A stretch of DNA of 64,000 bases from assembly GCA_026770705.1 (NCBI GenBank), contig JANJGN010000035.1:14198001-14262000 (forward strand). Reading direction: 5' to 3'. The notes under the pieces are model-generated. The model saw only the letters and a list, made by a program, of their open reading frames with translations, did no database searches and was not told where the DNA came from. Positions within the stretch are counted from its first letter, which is position 1, and each line of letters begins with the position of its first letter. Made by a program: the position numbers and the translations under genes. This DNA comes from Isurus oxyrinchus. Taxonomy: Eukaryota. Of this stretch, positions 1 through 64,000 are shown in pieces.

Positions 1-40
1 TCCAGGTATTTTTGTTTTTGCTTTCTGATGTAATAGTACC

Positions 41-500
41 TTTCTGTATTTCTGCCGCAGTCTCATTCAGTGCTAACTATAACCCCTATTTTTGTTTACA
101 TCCACATGCTCTGAAACTATGCTTCGGATGGTCCACGTCCAACTCCTTTCTGTAACTTTCAGAGCAGACCCTATATCTGCCCAACACATTTCATTGATTT
201 CCCTGCATGGAATCCTGGATCGCTATCCTCCTCCTTGTCACGGTCTAACAACTGACAGGTCTTTTGCATCTATTTATAGCTGGGACGAATGTTCTCTCAC
301 TTGACAAGCAGTGAATTCCATCTTTCCCAGTCTCACCATATGATCCTGCTGCTTTGGAGCGTGTGGTTGTGTTAAGTGTGCGCTATCAGCTCAAGTTGCT
401 TCTAGCTGTTTAAAACATTCAACTCTAGTCCACATTGCCCATTAGCGTCTGGAAATTACTATAGTCAGAAAACTTGTATATATTGCTCTCTCTTCGTCCA
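41..500 (+). pseudogene. LRR pseudo-exon remnant
   Basis: FLYFCRSLI, QTLYLPN, STLPISVWKLL*SENLYI; homologous to 40045-40490. Confidence 0.55.
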
Positions 501-928
501 ATGCACCCTCGACAAATGCCGCAACAAGCTGACACCTCATCACAGATCAGTGGGAGTTATATCAGGGCATATCACGTGAAGAATCAAACAGGAGAAGTAA
601 AAGGGATTCATGGTTTAGGAAATTTGACTTCATTATAAACACAATCAATCAAGTGAATTGGATATTTACACTTTTCGGTCCAGTTTATCTTTGTGAGAGC
701 CTCCAGCTCATTACAGGAGCGGAAATGAATAGACACCATGTGAGTATATCCTTATTTTAATGTGATGAATCAAAACCTTTGAGCTCCAGAAGTACTGTTT
801 TCATGATAAATTCTGTAATGCAGAGGAAACCACAATTTGATTTCTTGCACACAGGCCTGGTCAAAAAAGTATAGAGGGATCGGGGAAGTGATTCAAAGGC
901 TGATACCAGAAATTAATTCACTTTTCAG

Positions 929-1277
929 GCGTTTTTTCCAAAGTATACTAATGGCCGCATTTTGGCAAATTCTGTGAACACAAATAAAACTGTCTCACTA
1001 TTAAAACATTGCAACTCGAATTGACTGGAATTTCTATGGCTTTCGCTCCGTGCACCAAATGTATTTTCGGCCAAGAGTCCAATGGCTTTGTGTGAAATAT
1101 CATGGACAGATATCAATATTAATTGCTGCTTACTCTCCCAAGCTGTGGGCCTGTCTGCTGGCGAATTTTACCAGTGTCTTTGTTCTTGTGGTGGATGTGT
1201 ACCTGTGTCACTTCAAGCTCTGTATTTGGCCTGGGAAATACGCTTTCTCAGGCATTCAAAGTAATTTTGCCGTTTAG
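929..1277 (+). pseudogene. SRCR domain pseudo-exon
   Basis: CTTTTCAG acceptor and GTGAGT donor. Frame-shifted motifs FGKFC, FGQES, ISWTDININC, PKLWAC, AFKVI/FC fit the SRCR consensus (WGTVC..FGQGSGPIWLDDVNC..LW.C..DAGVIC). Confidence 0.7.
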
Positions 1278-2024
1278 GTGAGTACACAATAAAATCCTCA
1301 AATGCGGCTGACCTACGCGAATCAGCAAAGGCAGTTCCAGCACGTATTTGCTTTATTTTATATAGACTGAACGAGAATGGACAGTATGGAGGGTGCTTGC
1401 TCCCATGTTACTGTCCCAAACCAACCTCCGTCCACCTAATCACCTGAGCCTGGCGGTGGAAGAAAAAACAATTTGCCTGAGATGCTTAACCTGGTGAAGC
1501 ACCCTCTGCTGCTCCACAGAAATGTTAACAGCCAAAGCTCACAGCCAGACACAGAGAGAGATATAAGGTTTGGAAGACAAAAAGGTGGCAAAAGAAAAGG
1601 GCTGAGGAGCACGTTTGGCTATAAGGCTGCGGAGCAGGCTGGTGCAAATTGATATTTGGGCAGAGGTGTTTTCTTCCGTTTCAAATTCAGTAAAGGGTGA
1701 AATCAATCATGTTGGCCTAGAGACCGCAAGAATAGTCAAAAATGAGATACCAGGTACTGATGAGAGTTTTCCCGCCCAACTACATAATTGCCACGCAAAG
1801 GCACACAGAAACCAATTAGACATGCTAAGCACGCCATGCTTAAATAACTCCCAGCAAACACATCCCCAACAAGCCACGCTCCCGGAACATGTCAGAGCCA
1901 TTTACCAGTGACAATCTCTTATTTCTCGTTTTGGATTGACCCAATAGGTGGCAAATGCATTACCCTGATTCTGCCTGCTGTAATATTCACTATTTTCTAA
2001 ATATCTGTTTTATTCGCCGTTCAG

Positions 2025-2823
2025 ACTTCCGTTGTCTAATGGAAAACACCAGCCTAATCACTTGTAGGCATGATTAAATACGTTCTTCAGAATGCTCATA
2101 ACCAGCATCGTTGAACTGCCTGTTGGAGGCCAATTCATTCGTGTTTTTTTTCTTTACGTTGAGGCTATGTACATACGGATGATATAGGTGTGTTTATAAA
2201 TAGATCACAGTCAGCTGCCTGATGGTTAGAAAGCTAGCCTGATTTGCCACATGACATTTATTTATCGGCTCCCCTGACCACCCATTCTCAAATAGTGAGA
2301 CAATACGAGTAAATGACGCCCATATTATTAACTTTCCATGGAGGTCCATTAAATGGCGAATGGCGAAAACTGCCTTCCAATACAGTGATGCCCCAGATCA
2401 ATGCCCCTTTTTACCTGTTCACTTCCCCCATGTGTGACTATATTATCTGCCCAATAATATGGTATAATTTTCTTTGTGAATTGTGCTATTCCAGTTGGCA
2501 TGAGAAATCTCCGGACCAGAAGTCCTTTTCCTTATTTCCGATTGTCATTAACATGTAATTGCCCCGAGGTATCCTTATGGACTCCAATTTATCCTTTGGA
2601 ACCTAGTGCTTTTGGAGATATTCACATCAATGCCTGATTCGGTAATTGGGTGTAAGGCGCTGGGCAGAAATTCGAAGATTCAAGTCTATTAGTTTAGTGA
2701 TTAAACGGGACCTCTTAACATATAGTATTGAGCTGAATAGAAACACGGGACTTGAATCTATGCAGCACCTTTTCTGCCCATTAGGAAGCCCCTTACACGG
2801 AACGAAACTGTCTCCTGCTTATA
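2025..2823 (+). pseudogene. LRR pseudo-exons
   Basis: HNQ-IVELPVG (2097-2127), YLPNN, LEPSAFG (2596-2616), ELNRNTGLES. Confidence 0.65.
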
Positions 2824-2874
2824 GGTGTGTGATTATCACAAGCTGATATGTGATGTGTGTTGAGTAAGAGCTCG

Positions 2875-3582
2875 GAGGTTCAGCAGGATTTGGGTGTCCT
2901 TGTGCATGAATCACAAATGGTACAATAATTAATTAGGAAAGCTAATAGAATAAGATATTTTTTTAACAATTTTTTTATTACAAAAGTATGTTTCACATTT
3001 ACAGATCATGGGTGAGATCACAGCTGTAATACAGTGTACTGTTTTGGCCTCCTTATTTAAGTAAAGACATAAATACATAAGAGACATTTCAGAGAGGATT
3101 TGCTGGATTAATGCTAGGAGTGGATGCGTTATCTCATGTGAAAACGTTGGGCAGGTTAGACTTGTATCCGCTGGAATGCAGAAGCATAAGTAATAATCTG
3201 ATTGAAAGCTTGATGTTACTGAGGGGTCTTGACATCGTGGATGTGGTGAGGATGTTTCCTATTGTGGGATAATCTAGAACTAGATGGTCACTGTTTAAAA
3301 ATAAGTCATTGCTCATTTAAGACATTGATGGGAAGAAATATTCTGAGAGGTTGGTGTGTCTTTGGTATGCTCTTCCTCAAAATGCGGGTGAAAGCAGAGT
3401 CCTTGAATCTTGTAAAGGCAGAGCTGGATTGATCTTTTATTAAGGAAGGCCTAAATAGTTTCGGGGGTCGGTGGGAATTTGGGTTTGAGGTTACATTCAA
3501 GTCTGCCATGATCTTATTGATTATTGCAGCCGAATCCTGGGGCCAAGTCGCCGATTCCTATTTCTTTTCCAGGTGTTCCTAT
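2875..3582 (+). mobile_element. CR1-type LINE 3' fragment
   Basis: Degenerate RT C-terminal (DLGVLVH..RKAN..) followed by the typical CAGCCATGATCTTATTGA-like 3' UTR. Confidence 0.85.
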
Positions 3583-3699
3583 GGTCAGATCCATGAAAGC
3601 AAGAGTAAAGTGTTAACTTGGTGTGATAAAGTATATGGTAAAGTAATGTGTTAACTTTGTTAAAATGGTAAAGTGTTAATTTGCCCCTGTGACATAAAG

Positions 3700-4990
3700 C
3701 AGTGTGTGTCGACAGAGGATGAATGCTTTTCAGATATTAATGCATTCCCCAAGTATAAATTTTGGGTCAGTTGCTCTTTCCTAACTTCTTTAAATGAATG
3801 AGATTATGGTGTATGGAGCAACTTGATAAAATATGTAGCCAGTTCACAAATTGAAATTTGCTAGATATGGGCAACCGGGGTTGCTGACTCCAGATTGCAT
3901 AGACAGATAAGGAAATGGGGATAAGGAAGATGGAGGTGCCGGTACCCAACTTGGAAATTTGTTAGACATGGGCGACTGGCGTTGTTGACTTCAGATGGCA
4001 TAGACAGGGTTGAGAATTGGGTTGAAACGTGGTAGATGGACCTGAATGCTAGTAACTACAACGTTTAAAAAGGCGAATATGTCTGGGCAATGTACAATTA
4101 CCATTCTGAAAGGCGCAGGTGTGAAGAAAGGTCCTCCTGTCCATAAAGGCCAACCATATTTTTACTTTTAAGGCCCGCCCTTGTTCAAGGGGTTAAAGAG
4201 TCAAACTCATGTAGTCCACTCCTGGAAAAGACGGCAGATAGGCATTCCCTGAAGGACATTAGTGAACCGGATTGACCTTTAAGACAATCGGCAATGGATT
4301 CACCGTCATCAGCATCAGACTTCTAATTCCGATTTTTACTGAATTCAAATTTCACCATTTGCCGTGCAGAATCCATGTCCCCAGCACGTTACTCTGGGTC
4401 TCTGGAATACTCTTCTGTGGCAAAACCACGATGCACCATCTCTAAATGCAGTTACACAGTATGAAAACAGCTGAATGTGCTAGGACTTTATAAATAGCTA
4501 CCTGTGTATCAGCTGGAGCTTTTGTGGACAAATCTTCACATGATAATCTTGAAATACCTAATGGTATTAAAACCGGTATAGGGAAATTGTCCAGGCTTGT
4601 TGGTGGGCAATGGAACTCCGTTGTAAGGGGAGGCTATATTACAGCAAAGTCGCTTGCAACTGGTAGAAAAAAAATCATTTTGGAGTTGATTTATTAAAGC
4701 TTTCTAAGGTACTGGGAGGATTTGATGGAAGAGATAGAGAGCAGCAGCCCCCTCTAGTGACTAGGCAGATAGGTAAGAGGCATGGATTGAACATGTCTGG
4801 AGGTAGCTTGAGGGGAAATAAGCGTCATTTAGTTCAAACACGGCTTTCTGAATCTGGGACGTTGTAAATGGAAAAAAAGAGTCTGGAAATAGCTTACTGA
4901 AATAACTTTAAAAGGAAACTAGACAGTCTGTCGAGAATGAAAACTTGACAGATTAAAAGAGAAAAAAGGATGGGGAGGAGATGTGGTACA
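3700..4990 (+). mobile_element. Old CR1 fragment interrupted by a SINE
   Basis: W..RW.M motifs, then LYK..QLE...GDL..; split at ~4150-4445. Confidence 0.6.
4150..4445 (-). mobile_element. tRNA-head SINE (elasmobranch type)
   Basis: CCCTGAAGGACATTAGTGAACC and GAATTCAAATTTCACCAT body shared with other copies in the window. Confidence 0.8.
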
Positions 4991-5014
4991 CACAATCATC
5001 GTTTTGCTTCAAGA

Positions 5015-5251
5015 GTTCAGTACACAAGGAATAGGCGAATGTTCTGTCCATGTCAAAACCAGACCCGCATGGACAGCAGCAGGTAGAGGACATTTGAACA
5101 GTTTCTGAGCCAAGGCTATGCTTAATATAATTATATCACGGCACAAGCGTGTAATGAAAGATCTGGTAGTCAGTGTTATATATGGGGCTCTGGGGAACCG
5201 CATTTCAGCTTGAATGCCGGCTCCCATTAGCTCGTAAACCAGACCAGACAG
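5015..5251 (+). pseudogene. LRR pseudo-exon
   Basis: GNRISA-LNAGS..TR (5193 onward), followed by AG|GT. Confidence 0.55.
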
Positions 5252-5654
5252 GTGATATAATCGCTTACTTTTGAAATTCTCACATTGCTAATGTTTTTTT
5301 TAGTAAAATGACCACTCCGTTTATGTCAATGTCCGTATAAATAAAATAAACTTATTTATGAAATGCCACCTTCTGGACTCGTGATTTTGCAAAACTTTCA
5401 CTCGGTAAATGAGTTATGTTTATATTGTGACTCAGGGTGAGACGTTTGCCAACATCCTAGAGATACTCTCATGTTTCTGAGCATGGTGTTCCCCACTCTA
5501 GAATTGTTACATATATATATATGTATGTATATATTCCCATATATTGACATACATATCTTATCTAAACATTGTTTGAATTGACATGTTTTGGAAAATTCCA
5601 TTCATACTCTAAATATATCACTATCATTTGCATGAAATCCCGTGCGAGCTCCAC

Positions 5655-6380
5655 AGAAGTACAGAGGATCAAAGTTAACTTGGTGTCCATGCCCATAGAT
5701 CACTGAAGGCAGCAGCGCACCTGAATAAGGTGGTGAAGAACGCAGATGGGATACTTGCCTTTCTGGTCCACAGCATAGAATATAAGAGCAGGGACATTAT
5801 GCTGGACCTGAACAAACACTAGTTAAGCCCCATTTGGAGTGCTGTGTGCAGTTCTGGCAGCCACGCGAAAGGAATGATGTGATTGCACTGGAGAGGGTAC
5901 AGCCGACATTCACCTGGATGTTGCCTGCTCTGGAGCGTTTCAGCCACGAAGAGAGCTCGGATAGGTTTGTTTGTCTTCCTTAGTGCGGAGAAGACTGAGG
6001 CGGTTCTTAAAAGAGGTATACAAAATTATGAGGGGCATGGATAAGGTAGATAGGAAGAAAACATGCCCCATCAGCAGTGGTGTCAATAAAAAGGGGGCAT
6101 ACACTTAAGGTAAGGGTCAGGAGGTTTAGAGTAGATAAGAAGATGTATTTTGAAGCTTAAATTTGGGGGATATCGGAAACTCAATACTTGAGGGGGTGGT
6201 AGATGCAGGAACTCTCACAGCATGTAAGAAGTATTTAGATGAGCACTAGAAATGGGTTTGCACATGGGGCTACGAGCCTGGAGCTGAGGGAAGGGATTAG
6301 AATAGACATGTACTTGAAGGATGGCAAGGACATCATAGGCCGAAGGGCCAGGTTTTGTGCTTAACTCTATGACCCAATGA
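5655..6380 (+). mobile_element. CR1-type LINE 3' fragment
   Basis: LGVH..SLKAA..KVVK..GILAF..IEYKSRD..LECCVQFW; CTCTATGAC tail. Confidence 0.9.
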
Positions 6381-6429
6381 CAGTTTTTGTGAACCGTTTT
6401 GAGATCAATTCCTATTCCATACACAACTG

Positions 6430-6760
6430 CACAATGAGTCCGATCTTCAGGAAATCAGTTCTCAAACACCCATCCCCTAGGAACGGGCCTGTCACAATGT
6501 GATGCCGGCAGCACCCTCTAGTCCGCTCTTCATTAGCAGAGCAGGAGGTCCAGCGTGAGAAAATTGGCCGCTGTTGCAATCGAGTTCAGTTCATGGCTGT
6601 CTTTGCATTTATAGTGTCCAAGAACGCAAGTTGCTGACTGAAACTGAAGCAACGTAACCTACAGACTAAAGGGACTAAGTGGAACTCACCAACTAAACCT
6701 AAACGGATAAGAGGAAGCCATCATTCCCTTCATTACAGTGCTGGCTCTCTGAAATATATC
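6430..6760 (+). pseudogene. LRR remnant
   Basis: NRVQFMAVFAF, GLSGTHQLNLNG, SLKYIY. Confidence 0.5.
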
Positions 6761-7121
6761 TACAATTAATTCGTGTTCCCAATATATTTTCTCATGGACC
6801 CTCAAATAATTAATCAATGCTAATTTGAAGGTTAATATTGAAAGTTCTTCCACCAGCATTTCAAACCATTGAAAACTTTTTGCTCGTCTTCTGTTTGACT
6901 CTTCACCCAAGTGCAAATTATTCCCCTCGCCCCTTTCGTTCTCCCCTCCCCTAAGTTGCTATCTCTCTAATCAATGATATATTTACTAAAATATCATTCT
7001 GTGCTTCTTCATTTTATCCGATCTATCACTAACAAGCCTCTGATTCCATCCTCTTCCCAAAACCGTTCTTTAGAACCGCAGCCGCATATCTTCACCTCTC
7101 CTCGTTGTTACCCATCCCCTT

Positions 7122-9135
7122 GTGCACACTCATACACCCATCCGCTTTGAAGACATTCTCAAGTTCGAATTCCCACGTGTTGCATTTTTAAAACGAGGTT
7201 TGTTAGAAAACAACTTCAAAACTCTGGGCGAGTACACTTGGCAGAAACTGCTTCGGACCAACCACGCCCAGGATACACGCAAACAGGGGAAAGCCCGTGC
7301 TCAACACTCCCCCTCGCTGGTTCTCTGGCCTTTACCCGTCAGCCCACATTTCTCCATCAATACAACACAATGTCTATGTTTCAAACTACGCCCTTCCCTG
7401 TAAAGGATCTACAACATCGTGAGGCCTTGGGAGGCCATATGTTAATTAAGAACAAATTCCTATTGACCTCGATTTTACCTTCTATATTGACTGCATCTTC
7501 ATGGAATACAGCAGTTTGCCTTCCTTTCTCTTTCAGTGATTAAAACCACCATGTCCATCCACAAACACATGAAATCTTCGGATGTTTAAAAGCAAACCCG
7601 CACTGTGCCATTTCTCTCCTGACTTGTGTCCTTCCATCTGCTCCCTCAATGCGCCTCTCTGAACTACACTACTGGATGTGTATACAGTTTGAGTATTAAA
7701 AGCACCAGTCAATGTAATTGAGATCTCGCAAGCCAATGTCCCCTGAACTGTTATGCCCAAATCTCACCAAAGGATTCAGTGTGAACCAGAAAGGTTCAGA
7801 ATACCAGGCATTCTGGCACAGACTTTTCCATTTATAAATCAGTGAAACCGAATTACGGACAAATAGAAAAACAAAACATAGGAAGGTCTGAGTTACCTTT
7901 CAGCCCATGTGCCGAATTGCACTGTTGGGCTTAAACCTTTTCCTCACTTATAGACCCAAGGAACTACATTGGACTGCGTGAGCAAGCCCCCAGACCGAAG
8001 GAATGATCGATTTCTATTACTAAGCACGCTGCACAGGTAAGCCCGGGGAAGGGGACAATGCCTAGCATTTGATTGGACACGTTGTCCGATCCAATCGATT
8101 TATTACAAGGTTACAGTTGTCAGAATTTACAAAGTTTCTCGGAATTTGCTTTCACCCTTTCATGGAAACTGGAACACAGTTTCTCACAATCAACTAACAA
8201 CAAAAAAAATGACATAGTTTTCCGACTCACTAACCGTGATATCTTTCCATGATTCACATCACCTCCAACGTTCTAAAGATCCAAAGCAAGAAAGTGAGAG
8301 AGACAGTAGTTGTCACATCTCCTTTGAGAGAGCCACTCATTTGTTGGGTGAAAGCCCAGATAAAGGGAGGCAGTTGAGCTGTGCGGGAAGGGAATGATCT
8401 GTAGAGGGCCGATTGCAACTGGAGAATGTGAGGACAGGAGGTGTCTGTTATGAGGCCGCTGAGAGCGAAGGGGCGGTTGGACAGACTCTGAGGGACCTCA
8501 GATAACTTAGTCTTTACAATACCTGACATTGGAACTAAGAGTGCCCGGTTCGGTTGCTGCTTTTCCACTTCCCATGAGGCGAAGCGAAATATATCCTGCT
8601 GCCATCTTCTGCTGCTTGAACAATAGCTGAGATTGAGCCGACCCACAACGAAATAGTCCTCCCTTCAGAAGCCGTTGAAACACCAGCGGTACCTCGATCA
8701 GAACAGCATTCCTGCTGCTGCATTCAACAGAATGGGAGCCATAGTATTCACATTTTATCGTATTTAGAAGCAAGGAACCTCTATTCAATTACCTGTTCCT
8801 GCTGACTATCGAAGGCAAATATTATTCTAAAGGGCACACTGACTGCTATCGGTCAGAATACCAGGGGCAAATGCAGCAGCTGGTGGCCGTCTCGGCTTCT
8901 CCAATGTTATGTAACTCCACAGTTAATTTCCTACCTGACTCGCACCTTCCTTAGTTGCCCTACAATCCCCTGATTCTCACAGGATCCAGAGAAATTATCA
9001 GCTTCGATCCCGAATTATGATGATCCTGGACGCACATTCTCCTGTGTCAAGAATTTAAAAGCTTCACAGGCACATGTACGCTGGGACATCCGCCTTGAAT
9101 CAAATTTCTCATTCACATTGTCATTGAGCATACGT
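7122..9135 (+). pseudogene. Long LRR array remnant (at least two exons)
   Basis: LLENNFKTLG, STLP..WFSGL, NRITD..KT*EGLSYLS (7846-7902), donor GTAAGC at 8037, PAAIFCCLNN, THNEIVLPSEA (8641-8673), YLDQNSIPAAAFNRM (8690-8734), PGRTFSCVKNLK. Confidence 0.72.
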
Positions 9136-9500
9136 CCTCCCTTCTTCCCCCTCTCCACTCCGTTCCACCTCACCTCCTCCAAAATCCACTCCACCTCACC
9201 CCCAGTACCTTCAACAGCACCTTCCCCTCCCCTCCCCCTCGCCCTTCCACCTCACCATTCCAAGAATCCACTCTCCGCCTCCTCATACACTCCCCTCCTA
9301 AAACTCCCCACCTGTTCCCCGACCACCACTCCACCTCCATCTCCACCTCATCCCGTCCACCCATTCCTCTCAATCTCCACATTCCATGCACACCCTCTCC
9401 CCTTCCCCATATTTTCACGGTGTCCCCTACCATGGCCATACTAGCCCTCTTCCCATAGCCTCCACTCTGTACATGCCAGCTGCTCCACCTCTCCATCTCC
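9135..9500. repeat. C/T-rich low-complexity tract
   Basis: Runs of CCTC/CCAC, very few G. Confidence 0.85.
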
Positions 9501-9502
9501 AG

Positions 9503-9700
9503 CCCTCGATCAGTGCAGCGAAATTCATTGATAAAATGGATCAGTTGTTTAAAGAGCCTGTTCAATAGACAGGAGATGCCGAGAGAGTGCCTCTCAACTT
9601 ATCTCAGAATGATCGCTTTCAATATTCCCCCAAAGGGGAGAGCATCAGCAGTTGATGTGCAAAGTTTTAGTTGAGACAAAGCTTCGAGAGTGTGCCATCT
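9503..9700 (+). pseudogene. LRR pseudo-exon remnant
   Basis: KSLFN, LNLSQN; homologous to 50740-50970. Confidence 0.45.
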
Positions 9701-10035
9701 TTTGATTTTGTGAGATTTTGACTCTTTTGATGATCTGCTCCTATCACTGCTTGCTTTTCCCGACAGCAACAACCCCCCATACACTTCTCTCTCCCCACCC
9801 CACCCCCACACCCCGCACCGCCCCCCCCCCCCCCCCCCACCTTAAACCATCTTATATTTCACCCTTCTCCTTGTAAAGAAAAACCTGTTCTGTTGAAGGG
9901 TCATGAGGAGTCGTAACGTCAACTCTTTCCTTCTCCGCCAATTTTGCCAGACCTCCTGAGTTATTCCACGTAATTCAGTTTTTTTATTTTGGATTTCCAG
10001 CATCCGCAGTTTTTTGTTTTTATTTTTGTTTTTAT
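9700..10035 (+). mobile_element. Penelope-like element terminal repeat (copy A only)
   Basis: CTGTTGAAGGGTCATGAGGAGTCGTAACGTC..GCCAGACCTCCTGAG..TTTCCAGCATCCGCAG. Confidence 0.75.
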
Positions 10036-10499
10036 CTTCGAGATTGTGTGGTCAGTAGAGGGTAATAACTCAAACTGGTCCACGGTAATTATTTTCGCAC
10101 AATATAACTGGTGGGCTGCAGTGGTTCAAGAAGGCAGCTCAACACTAACCTTCTCAAGAGCGACTAGGATTGGACAATATCTGTTAGCTCAGCTAGCAAA
10201 GCTCACATCTCATAAATGAATGAAAAATACTTAATAGTATACCGGTTGTACAGATTTTAGAAGTTATATTTACCGACCAGTTAGTGACGGGAATTGAGAA
10301 AGAGCCACCCCCCACTCTATCCCCCACAAGGATGATCTGCATGATCATTATGAGTACATTCGACGTAAAAGCGACGGGATGGTGGTGAGGAGGAAGGATA
10401 ATATATGAGCGTATTGTAATTTTAAATCAGTTAACTGCCGAAGGACATGTCATTGCCACAATTTAAAGAGTGACACCCAAACTGCCTTTTTACTTTCAA

Positions 10500-10670
10500 G
10501 GTCGGTGACATCACACTTTCCCACCTCCAAGAACAAATTACATCTTTGTCTTCACCTGAAATCCACACCTCCTTCAGTTTCTAATTTCCTCATGTTATTT
10601 CTGATGATACATGTCACTCCTGATTTAACGTCAGCCTTCAAATCATGGAGGCTCCAACGCAAGACTTCTT
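10500..10670 (+). pseudogene. LRR pseudo-exon remnant
   Basis: SKNK/ITSLS, SAFKS; followed by a SINE in both copies. Confidence 0.45.
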
Positions 10671-10679
10671 ACTATGCAA

Positions 10680-11198: not shown

Positions 11199-11271
11199 GC
11201 CTGGATAACTCAGTTAGTAGAGCATCAGACTTTTAATCTGTTGGCCAAGTGTTCAGGTCCCTGTTCGGGTG
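11199..11271 (+). tRNA. TRK-TTT: tRNA-Lys(UUU), degenerate, probable pseudogene
   Basis: 73 nt with anticodon loop CTTTTAA; 11 differences from the canonical vertebrate tRNA-Lys3 (recalled), including G18A and A58G. Confidence 0.9.
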
Positions 11272-52519: not shown

Positions 52520-55060
52520 AATCAGCATTATCACAGAGTTCACCTGGCCCTCACTTTCAGTTTCGAAATCATTGCAACTTGCCGCAATTTTCTTGCTTCA
52601 ATCATATTTTTTCAGAATACATTTCCAGATGGACTTTATGTTTTTTACTTGTAGAAATGCGTCCTGACTTGGCTCTTGATTCGCCGAGATATTTGCATTC
52701 TTTGGGCCGGAGGAAACAGTTTCTCTGCTGTGATGTTGGGTTTTATTTTATTTAACTGGTTTTTTTTTTTGGAAATATGGTGGTATTCTGTAAAGAAGGA
52801 CGTCTGTGTATGTGCGTGTGTTTGAGCCTGATTAATTAAACAGTGGGAGGTACATAGTTTTGAGTAGACTGTGAGCCAATTAGCAGGGGAGCACTACCCT
52901 CTGCCAATGTTCGCTCCACAACAGACATGAGACAACGAACTGCCAGTATCACTGAGGGATCTTGCTCTGTGCAAACTTGCTGCCTTGTTTACTACATTAC
53001 CACACAGTTTCCAAGCTTAACAAACATTCTATCGGCTGCTTCACATTCAGTGACATGCTTTGGATAAATTCCAATTTCTGCATTGGCTCTTGAACACATC
53101 AATCCTACTTCACAGTAGCGCCCAGGAGCATCAGCTCAAAACTCCACACCCTCCTCCACTTTCTGACTGACACATATACTCTGCCTCGCTCTCTGCTGGC
53201 GTTATGCTTGCTTTAAAGTGAGTTCCACCAAGGTTCTCTATAAGGATTTAAAATCTGCCACGCTTCACTTTAAAGTCTGTCGAATGACATATTTCATTTG
53301 ACTCAAATAAAATTGATGTGTACCCCATTCCAAAAATGTCCGCTTTTTGGACAGTGGATTTGACACACTGAACCTGTGCAACAAAGGCAAGAGATCCATG
53401 GATTTTTCATGGAATTGTAGGAGTTAAGGATAGGGCATTAATGTGGTGCTGAACTCAAGGGATCACCTTTGAACTCATTGAATCACAAAGCGAGTTTGAG
53501 GTTTAGAACAGCTTTGAATTGCACCTATTACTAATGATCTATTCAGTGGGCGCCACTGTACCGCCCAGTCAGTACGCTAGAAAAGTAGAATTGAGTAGAG
53601 CAGTCAAGTGAATAGTTGCAGTGGGGCAGGTTCAAGGGGCTGTATGGCCAATGTACTCTCCAAATGTATTCCTCACTGCGGCAATGACAAGTTGTCTGAT
53701 AAGGTTCTTGCCAACTGAGAACCAGCATTATTTAATCAGCAGCTACTCCCTTTCTCACACATTTGCTGTTCAATCTTTAACTCTTTCGCTTCTCAAGGAA
53801 ATGTTCCTTGCCTCAAAACTCTCTGTGTACTCATCAGAAACACCGACTAGGGAGATTCTATTGGGATCGGGAAAGAAGAGGAGGCAGAGTGAGGAGTCAC
53901 ACAGTACTTTGGCTTCTGTGTTCCCTCAGGACATTAGCTGCTGACAGTACTTCGGTGGGTATGGACTCTTACTCTCTGAATCAGAAGCTCGCGAATTGAA
54001 GGTCCATGCCACATCCATTTTGGTCCATTATTCAGTCAGATACTCCAACGCTAGCGCAGGGCGATGGGGGCACTGGCACAATCAGTACTGGGGAAGCAAA
54101 ACACGTTTGGAGGCTCAGTGTAGATGGGGGTGCAGCGCCGCACTGTCAAAAGGCGTCGGTACTTGTTGGGTCGGTGCAGGGGGAGCGGAGACCTGCTTGA
54201 TAGTCAGTGCAAGGGAGAGCGGCGCCCCATGTGAAGGTCTTTGTAGACGGAGGGCCGCTCTGTCAGAGCATCAGTGGAGGGGGCGTGCTGCACTACCTCA
54301 TGTGCTGCCTTCTGAATCAGTTTTTGAACGATGACCATGGTCTGTGCTCTCATGATTATGTGCTCGTTATCAGATTACTGTCTGTGGAAGTCTGCAGTGT
54401 GCAAATTGCCTGCCACATTCCCTACATTTCAAGTGCGACCACAGGGCGAAAGGACCTTACTCGCTCTGAAATCAAAAAAACAGAAAATGCTCAACAAACT
54501 CAGCAGTTCTTACAGAATTTACGGAGATATAAACAGACTCAACCTTTCGAATAGGTAAAACACTTCTTGTCTCTGAAATGCTTTCCCGATATCACAGAAG
54601 CAGCTATATAAATGCATTTTTTGTCTAATTGCAGCTCGACGTACGCATTGCCAAGTGACCCTGGAAATTAGAATCATCATCATGATATAAAAACCCAAAA
54701 CATTTACCCTGGTTTCAAGGGGCTTCATCCAAACCTGTCCAATTTGCCAATGTTGTGTTTACAACTATGTGGAGATTTTGAGAGATTTCTCCATCACAGC
54801 ATTCACTTGCATGTTCTGACCCTTTTGCAGACAGATATTTTGAAAGACAACCTCTGAACCTCGAACATTTCCAGAGCTATAGGGCCAAGCTGTGATGGAC
54901 ACCAAGCCCAATCCACCCACAGAAATAAAGGAGGAAGTACGAAGTTTCCAACAGAGCCTAGTGCTCAAGTTCACTGACCTAATGGGGGAGCAAGAAAACC
55001 CTGGCTTTACAAAGGGACCATTACAGGATGTATTTGATAAACCTTTTCTACACAACAGCA
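52520..55060 (+). pseudogene. LRR remnants interleaved with SINEs
   Basis: FPDGL..LTWL, ISFDSNKI, TVDLTH, PNVF..TENQ, EPRTFPEL..NPPTEIKEE. Confidence 0.5.
53945..54625 (+). mobile_element. Deu-domain SINE with internal repeats and a nested Penelope remnant (54465-54570, minus)
   Basis: GTGCTGCACT..GTGTGCAAATTGCCTGCC..CCTACATT..GCTATATAAATGCA. Confidence 0.7.
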
Positions 55061-55069
55061 ACCCCAGCC

Positions 55070-55610
55070 AGAGAATTGTGTCCAAATCCTGGACTCTGCA
55101 CTTCAGGGAGGATGTGCGGTCCTTGGAGAAGTTGGGGAAGAGTTTTCACCAGAATGGTATCAGAGCTCAGGGAATCTGGAGGGAAAGGAGTTGCTGGGAT
55201 TTTTCCCCCTTTGACCAGAGAATGCTCAGCGGAGATTTAATAGATGTGGTTAGAAACATGAAGTGGTTTATGGTTGAAGAAAGAGACAGAGAGAGAGAGA
55301 TTGTGTTTGCTGTTGCTGGAGGGTTGGGGAGCAAAGGACGCAGACTGAAGATAACTCGCAAGAGATGCAGAAGGGATTGTAGGAGATTTTTTTCTTTTAC
55401 ACAGCATAATATATAACGTGCTGGCTGAAAGGGCAGATTCTATTTTAACTTTCAATGCTTGTAAGATAAATATTTGAATGAGAAAATACTGACAGGGCTG
55501 AGGAGGGAAGGAGGTGTGCGAGGGTTGAAGAGTACATTCTAGTGGGGCTTCATGGGATAGATATTTCAAAGAACTGAGCCGATTGTCCCTTTCCTGAGCC
55601 CGATCATTCC
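55070..55610 (+). mobile_element. CR1 3' fragment
   Basis: HFREDVRSLEK..QRMLSGDLIDV. Confidence 0.8.
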
Positions 55611-55624
55611 ACGAGAATACGGGC

Positions 55625-56020
55625 TTTTATTTCTCCAATATCTCTCACAATCTCGGAACGTCCTGAGGCGCTTTACAGTCACTTTTGGTAATGTTATTAT
55701 CTTCGTATTGAAGGAAAATCAAAGGCCAAATTTTGCACAGCGAGCTCCAATAGACAGCCTTGACAAAACGGCCAGGTAATCTGTTTCAATGATGTTGATT
55801 GGGGAATAAATTTTGGCGCCAGGACGAAAGGGGCGATTTGGCTGGGCGAGGCGGGGAGCGGAAGGGATGCTGAGCATTATTCTTCATCAAAATAGCGCCC
55901 GCCGGTACTTTTTACATCCAAAAGTAACTTCAGGGCCTCGGTTTTATCTCATCTGAAAGACTGCACCATCCCAACAGGGAAGCACTCCATCGGCACTTGC
56001 ATTGGGTATTTAATTCTGGA
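55625..56020 (-). mobile_element. Deu-domain SINE
   Basis: GGCGCTTTACAG..TTTGCACAGCGAGCTCC..GGGCCTCGGTTTTATCTCATCTGAAAGACTGCACC. Confidence 0.8.
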
Positions 56021-57090
56021 CATAGCAATACATGAACTTGAGGCAGGAGGCGGCCACTCCGTCCCTTAATCTTACTTAACCTTTAAATATATACATGGCT
56101 TTTCTGAATGTTTCCTCAGCCTCACATTTCCTGCCGACCCCCGATAACCTTTCACCCCCATGTTGATCAAGAGTCTTTCTAGCTCGGTCTTAACAATATT
56201 CAAATACGCAGCTTCCACCGCCCTTTGAGGAAGGGTGTTCCGGAGACTCTTGATCCTCAGAGAGAAACAGATTTCTCTTAATTTTTGTCTTAAATGGACG
56301 ACCACCTATTTCTAAACAGTGAGAACAAGTTCTATCTCTCACACAAGAGGGAACATGATATCCACACTCTGTCAACGCCCTCTTATCTTCTAAACATCAG
56401 CTGATACATGCCTAACCTATAAAAACTTTCCTCATAGCACCAAGCCCCGCCCCCACACCACCCCACTTTCCTGGTATTAGCCTGATGTACCGTCTCTTCC
56501 AACGGCTTCTAAAACATTTATAACCTTCCTTACATATGAATACCAGTGTTGTACACAGAACTCCATGTGGTCTCACCAATGTCCTGAGTAACTGAAGCAT
56601 GCATTCCCTACTTTTGTATTCAAATCCCCTAGAAATAAATGATGGTATTCTATTAGCTTGCCATATTTCGTGATGTACCTGCATAATCACCTTTAGTGAT
56701 TCATGCCTTGACACCCATTTTGTTCTGCATATGAAAGCTCTGCAATCTCTTGCAATTCTGATAATAAGCTTCCTTTATCGTTCCTTCTGCCAAAAAAGAA
56801 CAATTTCACAATCACACTAATGGGAAATTCAGAGGGATTACGTTGTGGTTCAAAATCATACGACGTGGAAGCAGAAGTAGATCATTCAGCCCATCGAGTC
56901 TGCTCTGCCATTCATTGAGATCGTGGTTGACCTGATAATCCTCAACTCCACGTTCCTTCCTTGTCCCCATAACCCGTGATTCCTGTAGCTTTTAAAAATT
57001 GGCCTATCTCGATGCTGAATTACTTACAGACCCAAACTCTACAGCCCTCTGTGGTAAAGAATTCCACAGTTTGAGAACACTCAGAGATGA
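56020..57090 (-). mobile_element. Two CR1 3' fragments
   Basis: ANRIPSFISRGFEYKSRE; LPQRAVEA; second tail GCAGAAGTAGATCATTCAGCCCATCGAG at ~56870. Confidence 0.85.
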
Positions 57091-57259
57091 AAGTCTGCTG
57101 CGTGGGCGGGGGTATTAGTGGTGTAACGACGATTGAGGGAAGACACAGTGACCCAGAAGTGGATATGGGATACAGGGAAGACACCTTCAGTAGTCAAATA
57201 TTGGCAGTATGGAGGAGAAGGAATGAAGTTTAGAAATGGGTCCCAATCTCTGGCTGTTG

Positions 57260-60200
57260 TTCATGAATACGTTCAGAGATTTAATACCGAAGGGATTCAG
57301 CAACACAAACCAGTCTGTGGGCTTATAAATAAACCCCCGTAGCTTAGTCACTCATCCAACTCCTTCCCCACGCATTCTGATCAATTTGGAAGTGCGTACG
57401 TTTTATTTTGCCCAAAAATGAAAGTAAACCCGACAGATATGTCCGAAGAGTCACCATTTCGCCCTCTAAAAATCTAGAATCTCGTAATCAAGGATTCTGA
57501 CACAGATCTAGAATCGCTGTTGCAACATCCGGGATTACCTCTAAACGAGAGTCCTTCCAGATCCAGGAATCTATATATTAAAAAATAAAATCTGGATACA
57601 ATCCCTCCAGACCCAGGTCTGACAAATCAATTTTATCGTCCCATCAATCCAGGGGGCCCTCAAAGGTTCAGATCCCGTACTTGCAAACCGAGGTTAGTCT
57701 CCGGAAAAGTACATTTAAAAATTCAGGATTCACTGTCTTCGACCATGAGACGAAACCAAAAATGAAGATTCCCCTCCTGAACAACTGATACAGCGACTCA
57801 AAACATTAACTATGTTTCTCTCTCACACAGATGCTTCCAGACCTCTGCCACATTTCCACATTGCTCTGTTTTTATTTCAGAGTCCCAGGATTCGCTGTAT
57901 TTTGATTTTTTATTAGGCAAATCAAGATTCACGTCCTTTTGCTGCTCAGGATTATTTCCAAGAAAACAGGATTTGAATTGCCTTTCAAGTCCCAGGATTT
58001 TCTCCCTTCCCCTTTGAATGATAAAAAGATTGGGCATTTTTGAATGTTTTCCACTTCCGCAATTCCCCCCCCCCCCCCACTCCCTTACCCACACCCCCTC
58101 CTCCCCACCACCAACTCCAGCAGCAGGAAGTGCTGCAATTTCCACTATGACATGTGAACAATCAAAGAAGGTGAAGGAGTAGGTCTTTCTGCCCTTCGAG
58201 ACTGTTCCAGTATTCAATAACATCATGGCTTGCTTTATAGGAACCTCACGTCAGTTCTGTGGCAAATCCACCTCTGCCTTTAAAACATTCAGACTTTGCT
58301 GCCACCATTCATTCAAGATGAGTGATAGAAATACTCAGCACCATATGAGAAATAAAAAAAATTGCCTTACATCCATTTTAAATGAATGATCCCTTATTTT
58401 TAAACAGCGACCCCTATTTCTAGATTCTCACAGGAGAGGAAACATCCTGTATACACCCGCACGGTCAAGACACCTCAGGATCATAGCATTTTCAATCCAG
58501 GTGCTGACTACTCCTCTAAACTCCAGAGGCTGCAAGGATAAGGCTGCCCAATCTTTCCTCAATCGTCCATTCTATGTGTTACCCAGGAAAACCTTCACTA
58601 AACTGTTCCCAACATATTTACATCCTTCCTCAAATATGGTTGCCAATAATATACACTGAACTCTAGCCCTCTTTTCTTTCAGATCTACTATGCGTCTTCC
58701 CCCTCTCTCAAAAACCATCCGAAGATAACCAGTGGGGGAGGAGTGCAGGATTGGGTGAAATGTGAATGAGGTGCAAGTTCAACGAGGGAGGTTGCCCCCA
58801 GCAAATGTTGTGAGAATGCGGCAGGTGAGGGAGCGTATCTGACACCCTCCACCAACAACCTCATCCTCCTCTTCCATCACCACTACCCCTCTCCGCTCAC
58901 CGTCAGTTCACCTCTTATTTTACCCTCTCTATGCTGTGGAAAGCCACAGCCTGGAGGCACCATGTCACGGAACACTGCGTTATCATCATACCTTCCCTGG
59001 AGAACCCACCTCGGCCACCGTCAATGGCTCAAAGACTCAGTCAGTACCCAGTCTGTCAGTCACAAAGCTGCCCTCCCTGGCCATTCGGTCCCTGAGCAAG
59101 AAAACGCCCATTCTGGCAACACCATGAGGGAGATGTGGCGAGTTTATGGGCACGAACTCACCCGTTCAACAATTAGCAACACAGAGCCATTCATTTGGAC
59201 TTCTGTGCTCAAGCATTCTTAATTCTCCCGAATATTCATCGTGGTTCAGCATCTCGTCCTATGCATTACATTCACAATGTGAATATCATCAAATCAGAAA
59301 CCCCCAGTTCCCCCTGGCGGAAAATGGAATGGTCCACACAATAGGGGTGCAATTACCAAAGTGTTGTTGCAATTTGTTCACAAGCTTGGATCAATCATCT
59401 TCTTAGATCTTTCAAAACCAATTACAAGTTAAATTTAATTTGGCTAAAATGTAATTCTCTTAATCTGGATCACTTCAAAATCTCAGATGTGCTTTTTAAT
59501 TTAAAGACATAGTTACCCCCTAGTCAATTAAGTAAGGGCCAGTTCACAATGGAACTAGTCAGCGGAGATCAAATAGACTGATTCACCTGATAGGGGACCG
59601 AGTGACAGTCTATCACCTCTTCCATTCACAGAATATCAATTAGTAATCACTGTTATCATGAATTCTTAACGAATGTAATAGTATTGCTGAGAAAATTTAG
59701 TTTACAATGATAATTTTTTTTAGAATTCCACCCCCTCCCCTCCCCCCTGCTACAAAGTTTTGGGCATTAACCTGTTGCACTGAGGGAGAGATTTAAGGTA
59801 AAGTTAGTGTATTCCACATCTCCCATCCCCAACACTTCCTCACCCCCATCTTGCATTAATTGATAACAAGGATATTCAGAGGGCCAGCAAAGGTGTGCTC
59901 TGTGTTCTTGTTGTTGTTTTTTGATGCCTGATGTTGGTAATAATCACACTTTGAGCTTGGAAGAATGAGGGCTCTTCAGTTGGACGGAAAGTGTAGTTAA
60001 GAGCAAAATCAGACCAGCTATTAATGGCAGAGCCTTAGCCGGCTCCTATTGCTTAAGAGTTTGTTGCCATTGGACGGTTGTATAGTGTTAATGTCACTGA
60101 GCAAGGAATCCCATGACCTAGGCTAATGTTCTGGGAACATTGTGGAATTTAATGGCCGGCGGTGGAATATACATTCACTAGCCTATGCGAATTTGTGTAA

Positions 60201-60350
60201 AAGTGCAAGTTAAGAACTGGTTCTGCTAGGGATCGCACAACATCCCAAAATTACTAAAAATCAGATGGCATTATTCAAAAATAAATCCTTCTAATGTGAA
60301 TGCAAACAATCATTTTAAATTGAAAAAGATTTTGATGTGTGTATGAGAAA
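57260..60350 (+). pseudogene. LRR remnants (paralog of 13870-17190) with shared Penelope and CR1 insertions
   Basis: Colinear homology; DVGNN..GLFS, IKLPK-like, LDV motifs. Confidence 0.55.
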
Positions 60351-60384
60351 CAAGGGCCGAATTTGACGCCAATCTCTATTCAAA

Positions 60385-62545
60385 CACCTCCAGCACCTGC
60401 AAACCTCCCTGTCTCCATAGAATCCACCACTTTCTACCATCCACACTGGTCTGTAGCGTCATTCAAACCTACAACCTAGTGTAAACACTCCCAGGCCCCA
60501 CAATTATGTATTCTTCAAGCCCATACAAATATGACTTTCCTCAAACCTCTCCCAAATGTTGAAAATCTGCCAATCTCTGCAAACTCGCCCAGCTGCAAAA
60601 ACCCTCTATATGTCTTTAACATCCTCCAGCACCTACAACCCTCCCTGCAACTTAACATCCATCAGCCCCTTCCTACTTCCAGAAAACTCTTCAGGCCTAA
60701 TGTCAAGCTTCTAACCTTGGAGACATTGAGCCTCTACTATACTTCATACACTAGGACATACTCCAGCTACTAATACCCTCCCTATCCCTGTAACTTCCTC
60801 CAGCACACAAAATCCTCCATATCACTGAATCGATCTCCAATTGCTACAGCGCTCCCATTCCCTGTAACTTCTTCAAGCCCTACGAACCATGCTGTCTCTG
60901 TAACATCCTCCATTGCTGAAAATGCCCACTTATTTCCATAAATTCCTCCAGTCCCTTCAAACCTGCACTTCTCTGTAATTTCCTGCCGTCGTACAACTCT
61001 ATCTCACCATATCTATAAAGTTTCCTACCCATACAGACTCTTTATATTTGTAAACTTCGCCATCCCCTACAGCACATTCTACCTCTGTAACCTCCTCTGG
61101 TCCCATCAAACCTCCCCAGCTCAGTGAACTTCTACAGCCACTTCCAGCATCCCATCTCTGTTTAACATCTTTGAATTCCTAATAAACTCCTTACCTCTAT
61201 TACGCGCAAGGCCCTCCATAACACTTCCTCTCCGAAATTTCATCCAGACATGAAAGCTCTCCCTATGTCTCCACCTATCAGAAGCCCCTAATTCCCTCAG
61301 AAGTCGCTTCAAGCTAAAGAACTCACCACTCCGCCTATCTCTGTTACCTCCTTCAGCCTCTTAAACGCTCTATACCTCTCATCCAATCCCTTCTCGACTT
61401 TCGTTTTCCTTTAACAATCTCCTACCCTTCAACACTCGCTATCTCTGTAACCTCCTCCAGCCCTTCAAAACTTTTTAACTCCGGAATCTCCCCCAGCCTC
61501 ATAAGCCCTCCTTATCTCTGTAACCTCCGCCATCTGTAACAAACCTCTGGATATCTGTAACCTTCTGCAGCTCCTACAACCCTCCCCTATCTCATTAACC
61601 TACACCAGTCCATATAACTGTCCCACCGTCTGAAAAATTCTGCTGCCACTGCAACTCTCCGGAACTCGATAACATCCTCCACCAACTACCACTCTTCCCA
61701 TTTCTCGTAAATCCTCCAGCACCATAACAAATCCTAACTCTAAAAAACTCTCCAGTCCCTACAACCACCACCTGCTCCCCCCCCCCATCTAAGTCAACTG
61801 CTCCAGCCCCTGCAACCCGTCCTATCTCTGTCTGCTGCTCCAAATCCTACAGCCCTTCCTATCTCTGTAATCTCCTCCAGCTTGCACTGCAACCCCTCTA
61901 TCTCTGTAACATTGTCCAGCACCCACAGCTATCCCGATCACTGTTACCTCCATCGGCCTTGACAACCGTCCATAGCTATGTACATTGTATGTCCAAAAAC
62001 ACTTCCTATCCCTATTACCCTCTGCACCTCCTGCAACACACACTTTATCTGTAGCCTCCTCCAAACCCTGCAATTCTCTCTATTTCTCTAACCTACTCCA
62101 GCCCCTACAACCATGCTGATCTCTGTCCCATCCTCCAAATTCTACAACCCCCTAACTCCCATACATTCTCCAAACTCCACAGTTATCCTTATCTCTGTAA
62201 TCTCCTCCAGACCCTGCAACCTTCTCTATCTCTGTAACTCCTCCAGCCTCAGAAACGCTCTCTATCCGTGCAGTCTCCTCCAGTGCCTGCAACCCTCCCT
62301 ATGTCTGTAACCACCTCCAACTCCTACAACAATGTCTAAGTGTGTAACCTCCTCCAGAGTCTACAACATTTCTTTCGGTGTAGACATCTCTAGCACATGC
62401 ATCCGCCCCCATCTCCGTAGCCTCATCCAACCCCTACAACGCTATCTACATCTATAAACACATCTTCCTCCACAACTCTTCCTATCTCTGCATCTCCTCC
62501 AGCCCCGAGAACCTTCCCTTATCTCTGGAAACTACTTCAACCCTG
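60385..62545. repeat. 37-bp minisatellite, expanded copy (~58 units)
   Basis: TATCTCTGTAACCTCCTCCAGCCC units. Confidence 0.9.
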
Positions 62546-62794
62546 TCAATCGTTACAACTATGTTTTTACTGGCAGCTTTCTTAATTCAACTTGGCTGCA
62601 ACGTTCTCTATATTTCAACAATAACAACTGTATTGAAATTATCATTCAATATGTTATTTTGTTTTTGGTGTATTTTATTTCATGATGTTTTTCTTAACTA
62701 CCCATTGCACAAATGATCCCTCAAGGCATATATTTTCACAAAACACAAAATCACTGGAAGGAATATTGTTTTGCAATTATTTAGACTGCGCTAT

Positions 62795-63085
62795 GTACAG
62801 TGGTAAGCATCGAACAGAGGTATAGGGGTTATGTTTTTGGGCAAAAATTCCCAGGTAGGGGTTACTTTATTGGACTAACAATCCTAGGTACAGCTTTGTA
62901 GTGGTTAAATTACAGGACAAATAATCCAGAGTACAGGCGTGTAAATGTTATGTTAATGGGCTAATTATCCAAGGTAAAGTAGCGAATGGGTTATGTTTCT
63001 GGCTAACAATCCAGGTTGCAGTATTGTCAAATTATGTTACTGGACGAGTAATCCAGGGTAAAGCAGTGTAGGGTTATGTTACCGC
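62795..63085. repeat. 43-bp SINE-head minisatellite, short copy (~7 units)
   Basis: GGTTATGTTACTGG..AATCCAGGGTA units. Confidence 0.85.
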
Positions 63086-63484
63086 AATAATTGTGTTGAA
63101 TGCAGATTAAATAATCAGCTGTTAAAAGTAAATTGATGGGTTGTGCTCCATCTGCTTAAAGATTAGAACACAGATTTCCATGCAAATAGGTTCACCCTTT
63201 TATTTAAATTCGAAACGCAAACAAGCATCAAACATGCAGATTCAATTACACCTGATGCAGTAAACAAAAATAATCTACCAAACTAATTAGACATAAAAGT
63301 ATTTAATAGTTAGCTACAACCAAATGCTCAGTCGAAGCAAAAAAAAAGACATTTTGAACTGAAGTACAATATTTGAGATTCTGTCCCTGCATTCAGTATA
63401 TAGCCAGCACTGGACAACAAATTGCCTCCACAAAACTTAGCCTTTCAGTATAAGAACATCAACACGGAGAACCCTCATCAACAT

Positions 63485-63815
63485 CCCAATTTGACCATTA
63501 AAAGGTGCAGGCAACGATGGATCGAGGGTGTCGTATGACGCAAGAGACTGTGCATCTTCTGTGGCTCTGTTCATGCCCGGGCACCTCTGGAGAGGCAGCA
63601 AACGGAGTCTGCCAGCATTGTCAAGGCCTTCTGTCCTTGTTGGGCACCGTAAGGACTGGATTGTTTTATTGATTCTGTTATTCAGCTTTTGGTTTAATAT
63701 TTGTAACTTTCCTTTAAATTTTGCCATGAATTTGCAGTTTCCCTTTAAGAGGCTGCCCTTTACTTTGTCCCAGATTTTGGTAACTTAGTTAATTTGGTGC
63801 ACTCAACAGACTTAC
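63485..63815 (+). mobile_element. Tx1-type 3' fragment (paralog of 20105-20435)
   Basis: Homology including GGGCACCG and GCCCTTTACTTTGTC. Confidence 0.65.
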
Positions 63816-64000
63816 ATGGAACAAGAAACGTCGTAAAATCTTGTTATATCTCTCATTTTGTAGGAGAGAGCTTGCTTGCTGCTGAAAAAAGAGACTTGTC
63901 AAAGCTATTCATCTTGCGCTCATCAAGCTAGTTGGTTGTCTTGTGAAGTGAACTGAGGAGTGCAGGATGAAAAGCTTCAAGATGTCTCATTTTTCAGCAA

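What the first reader, a model, noticed from the sequence alone, without database searches (positions are those of the whole stretch)
26..64000. ~40-43 kb diverged tandem macro-repeat
Seen: 26-20600 recurs colinearly from ~40030 with the same exon remnants, TE insertions, tRNA and minisatellites, at roughly 65-75% identity. Inference: one step of an old, probably multi-unit array, too diverged to be an assembly or haplotype artefact.
Basis: seen in the sequence. Interest (0 to 1): 0.7.

Follow-up and report, generated by a model that had tools for sequence, protein, structure and literature searches.

The report
Fossil megabase array of 44-kb units
The window shows two of about 26 head-to-tail copies of a 44,000-letter block in a shark or ray genome; the block carries only old jumping-gene debris and broken lysine tRNA genes, and it was likely multiplied in two ancient rounds of unequal crossing-over and then left to decay.

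Summary
Observation confirmed. Window 23-20,575 recurs at 40,027-63,956 (offset 40.0-44.3 kb): 77% of the first 20.9 kb lies on the diagonal at 71% ungapped identity, against 3-4% coverage in flank controls. The window holds units 23 and 24 of a ~972-kb array on C35 (26 units, same strand, 20-52 kb). Units fall into families A, B, C, D (K2P 0.18-0.23 within, 0.32-0.36 between) in a recurring A-B-(D)-C order: a decayed higher-order repeat. No SRCR exon, protein gene, micro-exon, histone gene or LTR integrase was found, so the 'exon remnants' are not supported. The only gene-like cargo is up to three tRNA-Lys(UUU) copies per unit, all dead (50 sites, at least 10 of 73 letters changed). A 27th copy 2.6 Mb away keeps intact tRNA-Lys genes, has recently re-amplified them, and carries about half as many substitutions. 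Best reading: a fossil tRNA-cluster macro-array, amplified neutrally in two waves, very roughly 100-250 My old (borrowed clock). Known kind of structure, unusual in unit size, age and decay.

The parts
260..40300 (+). Array unit U23 (40.0 kb). 5' part groups with family A; the 3' end is closest to the 3' ends of B units U09/U17. The unit boundary is an arbitrary phase in a tandem array.
40300..64000 (+). First 23.7 kb of array unit U24 (44.2 kb in all; continues to C35:14,282,500). 5' part groups with family D (U10, U18).
1..260 (+). Tail of the preceding unit U22 (family C)
11199..11271 (+). Decayed tRNA-Lys(UUU): 11 of 73 letters differ from an intact copy, 17 of 21 cloverleaf pairs kept; Rfam 35.5 bits; not called by default ARAGORN
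12985..13057 (-). Second, inverted, more decayed tRNA-Lys(UUU) copy of U23 (21 of 73 differ)
52406..52478 (+). Decayed tRNA-Lys(UUU) of U24: 11 of 73 differ, 18 of 21 pairs kept; Rfam 42.1 bits
5656..6382 (+). CR1-type LINE 3' fragment inserted before amplification; present in most units and in dispersed copies genome-wide (family name from recalled motifs)
17565..18218 (.). Decayed 36/37-bp minisatellite; partner at about 61,334-62,543
18493..19428 (.). Decayed 43-bp minisatellite; partner at about 62,823-63,082
52336..58110 (.). Block absent from U23; its core is found in 5 of the 7 B-family units and in U26, and partly here in U24. Accounts for most of the offset shift from 41 to 43 kb.
300..2900 (+). 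Unit-specific sequence (no dispersed match) used as probe: 44 matches, all on C35, 41 in the array and 3 in the sister copy at 16.98 Mb; 32 of 32 candidates scored

Best explanation
This is a fossil tandem array of 26 copies of a ~44-kb block from a tRNA-Lys-rich region of a shark or ray chromosome, likely multiplied by unequal crossing-over in two waves and likely functionless since. SHOWN: copy number, order, families, divergence tiers, dead tRNAs, the live sister copy. INFERRED step 1: a ~44-kb block holding CR1/L2/Tx1/SINE debris, two minisatellites and up to three tRNA-Lys(UUU) genes was duplicated in quick succession into at least five or six lineages (A, B, C, D, U25 and the copy now at 16.97-17.10 Mb); the short internal branches suggest a burst. 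INFERRED step 2: a multi-unit block A-B-D-C then became the repeat unit and was amplified about seven times, with whole-monomer deletions giving ABC, BDC and BC variants. INFERRED step 3: exchange stopped as units diverged (youngest long duplicate about 91%), and all array tRNAs decayed at or above the flank rate, so tRNA dosage probably did not maintain the array. The sister copy kept and re-amplified only the tRNA sub-module.
For: 26 same-strand units over 972 kb. Two-tier distances: direct K2P 0.18-0.23 for 9 within-family pairs and 0.32-0.36 for 7 between-family pairs; 3 pairs of an edge unit (U23, U24) with its nearest family gave 0.29-0.32. Projected p-distances are bimodal over 325 pairs. 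Families have full bootstrap support. A Penelope insertion sits at the same site in 7 of 7 B units. Order U02-U22 is A B C (A/C) A B C B D C B C B C A B D C A B C. Conservation is flat; codon periodicity max 6.05 against about 7.0 expected by chance in 1,106 windows. No host Pfam domain in 84 window ORFs, in 118 ORFs of at least 150 aa from the fetched 1.2 Mb (only RT, GIY-YIG, and two 7tm_1 hits outside the array), or in 140 of 208 ORFs of the sister copy. The consensus tRNA differs from an intact copy at 1 of 73 letters, while all 50 array sites differ at 10 or more. The main + copy averages 16.6 of 73 changes in 16 copies without deletions (3 with deletions left out), against 17-18% in flanks. 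Sister copy: 7 of 35 tRNA homologues have 0-1 differences, in repeats up to 97% identical.
Against: The crossing-over mechanism is inferred from order and phylogeny, not shown. The consensus covers only 79% of the array, and minisatellite and low-complexity blocks were masked in the micro-exon test. Observed low-mismatch windows sit slightly below the shuffle null at every size tested, which I attribute to alignment and composition effects but did not prove. About 60% of the unit has no identified origin, so an unrecognisable older pseudogene cannot be excluded. Family-level tRNA consensuses are near-intact in A (3 changes) and C (2) but not B (11), so some early selection is possible (too few sites to test). 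One 100-N gap lies inside the array. Several units are chimeric, so family labels are approximate.
Confidence: 0.75

Rival explanations
1. A dosage-selected tRNA-Lys(UUU) gene array: selection for more tRNA-Lys drove at least the first wave, and the genes died only when smaller-unit arrays nearby took over.
For: tRNA-Lys is the only recognisable gene in the unit. The sister copy re-amplified exactly this sub-module with intact genes. Other tRNA-Lys arrays with intact copies lie at C35 14.74-14.78 and 16.91-16.96 Mb and C2 57.26 Mb. A and C family consensus tRNAs have only 3 and 2 changes.
Against: Per-copy tRNA divergence (about 23%) is not lower than flank divergence (17-18%). The B ancestor's + copy already had 11 changes. 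Copying 44 kb for at most three 73-bp genes is inefficient when 1-5 kb units exist.
Confidence: 0.3
2. A dead protein-coding gene cluster (SRCR/CD163-like, GPR139-like or other), or an intragenic micro-exon amplification like the coiled-coil genes reported elsewhere in this genome.
For: GPR139-like fragments flank the array on both sides. One weak SRCR tblastn hit to the consensus (E 0.003, 36 aa). Earlier scan notes describe 26-29 kb intragenic duplications in this genome (unchecked).
Against: No SRCR, GPCR or histone match inside the array. No host-like long ORF in the consensus. No conserved AG..GT element on +, and one 29-nt candidate on -. No codon periodicity.
Confidence: 0.1
3. A relic centromeric or heterochromatic domain whose higher-order structure arose by centromere-type repeat turnover.
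For: Monomer families in a repeating order with deeper-branching units at the edges recall alpha-satellite layers (recalled). The array carries 1.7-2.1 times more substitutions than the sister copy.
Against: No short satellite. Units are complex DNA and 100-fold larger than centromeric monomers. No homogenised core. No chromatin data.
Confidence: 0.06
4. Assembly or haplotype artefact, or a tandem of a large mobile or viral element.
For: One 100-N gap in the array.
Against: Units are 9-30% diverged with nested family structure. Run contigs match the window. ORFs from five integrase-bearing loci gave no tblastn hit in 1.26 Mb. No dispersed copies of unique probes.
Confidence: 0.02

Closest known systems
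Human large tandem arrays / megasatellites of interspersed TEs (Warburton et al. 2008, PMC2588610; passages read)
   Same: Locus-specific head-to-tail units over 2 kb made of repeating TE patterns, presumed to expand by unequal crossing-over; higher-order structure reported in some arrays.
   Different: The table rows I saw had units of 2.5-39 kb at >90-99% identity where given (I saw only part of the table). Here units are ~44 kb, about 70-82% identical, and no longer homogenised.
Tandem tRNA gene arrays: Arabidopsis 27 triplet units x 3 tRNA genes (PMC2886086; abstract and outline); human 1q23.3 7.4-kb unit, >99% (PMC2588610 table row)
   Same: Similar copy number (26-27 units), up to three tRNA genes per unit, unequal crossing-over, copy number probably drifting.
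   Different: Those are described as under concerted evolution or near-identical. Here the unit is far larger and every tRNA is dead.
Clustered tRNA loci in elasmobranch genomes (Squalomix preprint 10.1101/2025.06.08.657570; abstract and passages)
   Same: Sharks and rays have very many tRNA loci in chromosomal clusters; C35 13-17 Mb holds several tRNA-Lys arrays.
   Different: The passages seen describe counts and a histone-linked cluster, not decayed giant-unit arrays. None of the 134 top histone matches here is on C35 (150 of 2,496 candidates scored).
Alpha-satellite higher-order repeats (recalled)
   Same: Divergent monomer families repeated in a fixed order; older units at the edges.
   Different: Monomer 44 kb rather than 171 bp, higher-order copies about 80% identical rather than near-identical, and no evidence of centromere function.

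Membership tests
Macrosatellite / megasatellite | Head-to-tail units of several kb or more at one locus | tested here: met
   26 same-strand units, 20.4-51.7 kb, 972 kb; unique probes hit only C35
Macrosatellite / megasatellite | High unit-to-unit identity from ongoing homogenisation | tested here: not met
   K2P 0.18-0.36; best long pair 91%
Macrosatellite / megasatellite | Copy-number polymorphism between individuals | not testable with these tools
   Raw-read depth on unique bins was under about 2x
Tandem tRNA gene array | Repeat unit carries a tRNA gene | tested here: met
   50 tRNA-Lys(UUU) homologues, up to three per unit (four in U26); consensus 1 of 73 from an intact copy
Tandem tRNA gene array | tRNA genes intact and conserved above flanks | tested here: not met
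   All 50 differ at 10 or more of 73 letters (ungapped count); best keeps 19 of 21 pairs
Higher-order repeat (alpha-satellite type) | Monomer families more alike within than between, in a recurring order | tested here: met
   Families A-D, order A-B-(D)-C with skips; B-specific Penelope insertion in 7 of 7
Higher-order repeat (alpha-satellite type) | Near-identical higher-order copies; centromeric chromatin | tested here: not met
   Within-family K2P 0.18-0.23; chromatin not testable
SRCR (CD163/WC1/DMBT1-like) gene cluster | SRCR exons in the repeat unit | tested here: not met
   tblastn and HMM negative; none of the top 150 genome-wide SRCR matches is in the array
Intragenic micro-exon amplification (BG-like coiled coil) | Short conserved AG..GT exons in frame-preserving lengths | tested here: not met
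   0 candidates on +, one 29-nt candidate on -; no codon periodicity; masked blocks not tested
Endogenous retrovirus / LTR element tandem | Integrase, LTR-type pol | tested here: not met
   No tblastn hit with ORFs of five rve loci; RT hits are LINE/Penelope type. Limited probe set.

The most novel reading that the evidence does not exclude
A >100-My-old higher-order repeat with 44-kb monomers has survived intact in order, and its silenced copies have mutated about twice as fast as the one sister copy that kept working tRNA genes. That would be a natural experiment showing that functional or chromatin state, not chromosome position, sets a twofold germline rate difference in sharks; the sister lies nearer the contig end, where the published 'chromocline' predicts the faster rate.
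Probability: 0.3. Interest if true: 0.65.

Novelty: new variant of a known kind. Interest (0 to 1): 0.4.

Why it matters
Large tandem arrays are usually either homogenised or collapse. A 1-Mb, gene-free array frozen at 70-80% identity preserves the full order of its duplications, so it can test models of how monomeric arrays turn into higher-order repeats and when exchange shuts off. With the live sister copy it gives 26 same-age neutral replicates against one retained copy, a direct handle on local mutation-rate variation in a slow-clock vertebrate. It also shows one way shark genomes gain tRNA pseudogenes and size. It is not a new gene or mechanism.

Tried and rejected
Default ARAGORN found no tRNA in the window. 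Rfam at E <= 1 found only the two tRNAs and a sub-threshold mir-297 hit; on six sister-region loci only tRNAs passed threshold. SRCR, GPCR, histone and integrase probes were negative in the array; the one 'histone-locus' ORF that hit was a CR1 piece. A C2H2 motif scan gave 10 chance-like matches in 1.26 Mb. Low Ti/Tv (0.72-0.83) looked like a special mutational process but was rejected as array-specific: 8 control pairs elsewhere gave 0.80-1.6, six of them at or below 1.03. A segment near consensus 41,011-41,100 is well kept in the sister copy and three units but not across units. No RNA holder was listed by the run search (not evidence). A run from a second organism gave only one 231-bp unique piece and was uninformative. 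Read support for the U23/U24 junction was not obtained. Earlier-finding look-ups near this place and by words returned nothing. Five literature searches (listings only, open-access library) listed no paper whose title or abstract start describes such an array; no supplements were read.

Full report
Observation. A self-comparison of the window gives one plus-strand diagonal, 23-20,575 against 40,027-63,956, with the offset rising from 40.0 to 44.3 kb. It covers 76.9% of bases 1-20,900 at 71.4% ungapped identity, against 4.1% and 3.2% for two non-array flanks.

Setting. The window is G000:C35:14,198,001-14,262,000 in a 4.98-Gb genome. A GPCR fragment beside the array has 10 relatives; the 9 that carry names are all from sharks or rays, mostly 'GPR139-like', so the host is inferred to be an elasmobranch. 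I fetched C35 13.198-14.462 Mb and 16.90-17.15 Mb.

Extent. The unit repeats head-to-tail on one strand from about 13.382 to 14.354 Mb. I delimit 26 units including partial ones: 20.4-51.7 kb, median 38.6 kb, 972 kb in all, with one 100-N gap. The window holds U23 and the first half of U24. Three unit-specific probes found long matches only on C35 (22 array places, 40 of 526 candidates scored; 44 matches, 32 of 32 scored; 40 of 275 scored). Searches also revealed a 27th copy near 16.98 Mb. Contigs of run X1 match unique parts of the window with 0-8 differences per 0.9-1.7 kb piece at depth 19-28; this may be the assembly's own sample.

Structure. Distances are two-tiered. Direct alignments give K2P 0.18-0.23 for 9 within-family pairs and 0.32-0.36 for 7 between-family pairs, including 0.347 for the window pair; 3 pairs of an edge unit with its nearest family fall between, at 0.29-0.32. 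Consensus-projected p-distances for 325 pairs are bimodal, run about 1-2 points higher between families, and include intermediate values from chimeric units. A tree of the 5' core (22 units; 4 left out for low coverage) gives fully supported groups A, B (with U26 basal), C and D, plus U25 alone, joined by very short internal branches. A Penelope insertion at one site marks 7 of 7 B units. The order U02-U22 is A B C (A/C) A B C B D C B C B C A B D C A B C. This fits an A-B-D-C block amplified about seven times with monomer-sized deletions (inference). The youngest long duplicate is about 91% identical.

Content. An in-script consensus of 44.06 kb covers 79% of the array, and copies lie about 17% from it. 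Its readable ORFs are LINE, Penelope and SINE debris (family names from recalled motifs; RT and GIY-YIG confirmed by Pfam on real copies). About 40% matches dispersed repeats in a 571-kb background, and 60% is unexplained. No SRCR exon was found, nor GPCR, histone or integrase sequence inside the array. Because earlier scan notes describe micro-exon duplications in this genome, I tested for them. No window is strongly conserved, there is one 29-nt AG..GT candidate, and there is no codon periodicity; low-mismatch quantiles were slightly below the shuffle null, and masked low-complexity blocks were not tested.

tRNA cargo. The consensus holds a tRNA-Lys(UUU) one letter from an intact copy. The array has 50 homologous sites, usually up to three per unit (two +, one -). 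All differ at 10 or more of 73 letters, and the best keeps 19 of 21 pairs. The main copy averages 16.6 changes in 16 copies (3 with deletions left out), no better than flanks. The genes have therefore been dead for most of the array's history. Family consensuses show 3 (A), 11 (B) and 2 (C) changes against 6-8% in flanks, too few sites to show or exclude early selection.

Sister copy. At 16.97-17.10 Mb one pass of roughly half of the unit is followed by re-amplification of the tRNA sub-module, in repeats up to 97% identical; 7 of 35 tRNA homologues there have 0-1 differences. Its branch is short: 0.13 and 0.10 against 0.17-0.24 for array tips from the same node. With TE copies from other contigs as outgroups, array units have 1.7-2.1 times more lineage-specific changes, in 118 of 118 comparisons. 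These cover only three segments and related units, so they are not independent. The whale shark paper reports higher rates toward chromosome ends (PMC13100897, passages); the sister copy is nearer the contig end yet slower. The cause is unknown, and the contig end may not be a chromosome end.

Age (inference). Whale-zebra shark median dS of 0.061-0.111 over about 50 My gives 0.6-1.1e-9 per site per year. The first wave is then about 160-290 My old on array distances, or 90-210 My on the sister's branch; the second wave is about 0.6 of that. The low pedigree rate of 7e-10 per generation (PMC10587355, passages) points the same way. The clock is borrowed from another lineage.

Comparison and verdict. 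It works like a megasatellite or tandem tRNA array expanded by unequal crossing-over (PMC2588610 passages; PMC2886086 abstract). It fails their homogeneity and intact-gene features, so I do not file it as a member. tRNA clustering in elasmobranchs is known (10.1101/2025.06.08.657570, passages). Five searches listed no description of such a fossil array (listings only). It is real, old and unusually large-unit, but gene-free, and the mechanism is familiar: new variant of a known kind, interest 0.4.

Noticed in passing
G000 C35:13.20-13.375 Mb and 14.354-14.45 Mb (L101-L118, L010-L019): Further old tandem duplications with smaller units (about 65-84% identity) flank the array on both sides. They hold tRNA-Lys copies (some only 4-6 changes) and broken GPR139-like fragments.
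   Followed up: partly
G000 C35:16.908-16.962 Mb (L150-L156): Young 4.5-kb tandem array (up to 99% identity), each unit with one near-intact and one decayed tRNA-Lys(UUU).
   Followed up: partly
L141-L144 (C35:14.74-14.78 Mb) and L145 (C2:57.26 Mb): Other tRNA-Lys(UUU) arrays with ~4.2-kb and 1-2 kb spacing. The C2 copies share about 120 bp of 3' flank with the fossil unit, so the module family spans chromosomes.
   Followed up: partly
Unplaced contigs C51, C63, C70, C72, C93, C99, C110, C112, C123, C157, C176 and others: Near-identical SRCR exon pairs 1.4 kb apart recur every few hundred kb on many unplaced contigs, suggesting a very large young CD163-like gene amplification.
   Followed up: no
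G000 C48:3.8-4.8 Mb: Regular ~20-kb tandem array of histone H3-type genes next to an SRCR array at 3.0-3.5 Mb.
   Followed up: no
Array and control pairs on C70, C20/C27, C47, C40/C50: Transition/transversion ratio near or below 1 in most paralog pairs, low for a vertebrate by recalled expectation.
   Followed up: partly
L107:3541-6318 (-), L038, L013, L014: Young Penelope-type elements (RT + GIY-YIG, up to 96% identical, some as inverted pairs) inserted in and around the array.
   Followed up: partly
L127:8232-8766 (C35:18.0 Mb): A less decayed copy of the unit's 36/37-bp minisatellite (up to 90% to the array consensus) beside an SRCR exon; reads show the minisatellite is abundant genome-wide.
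   Followed up: no
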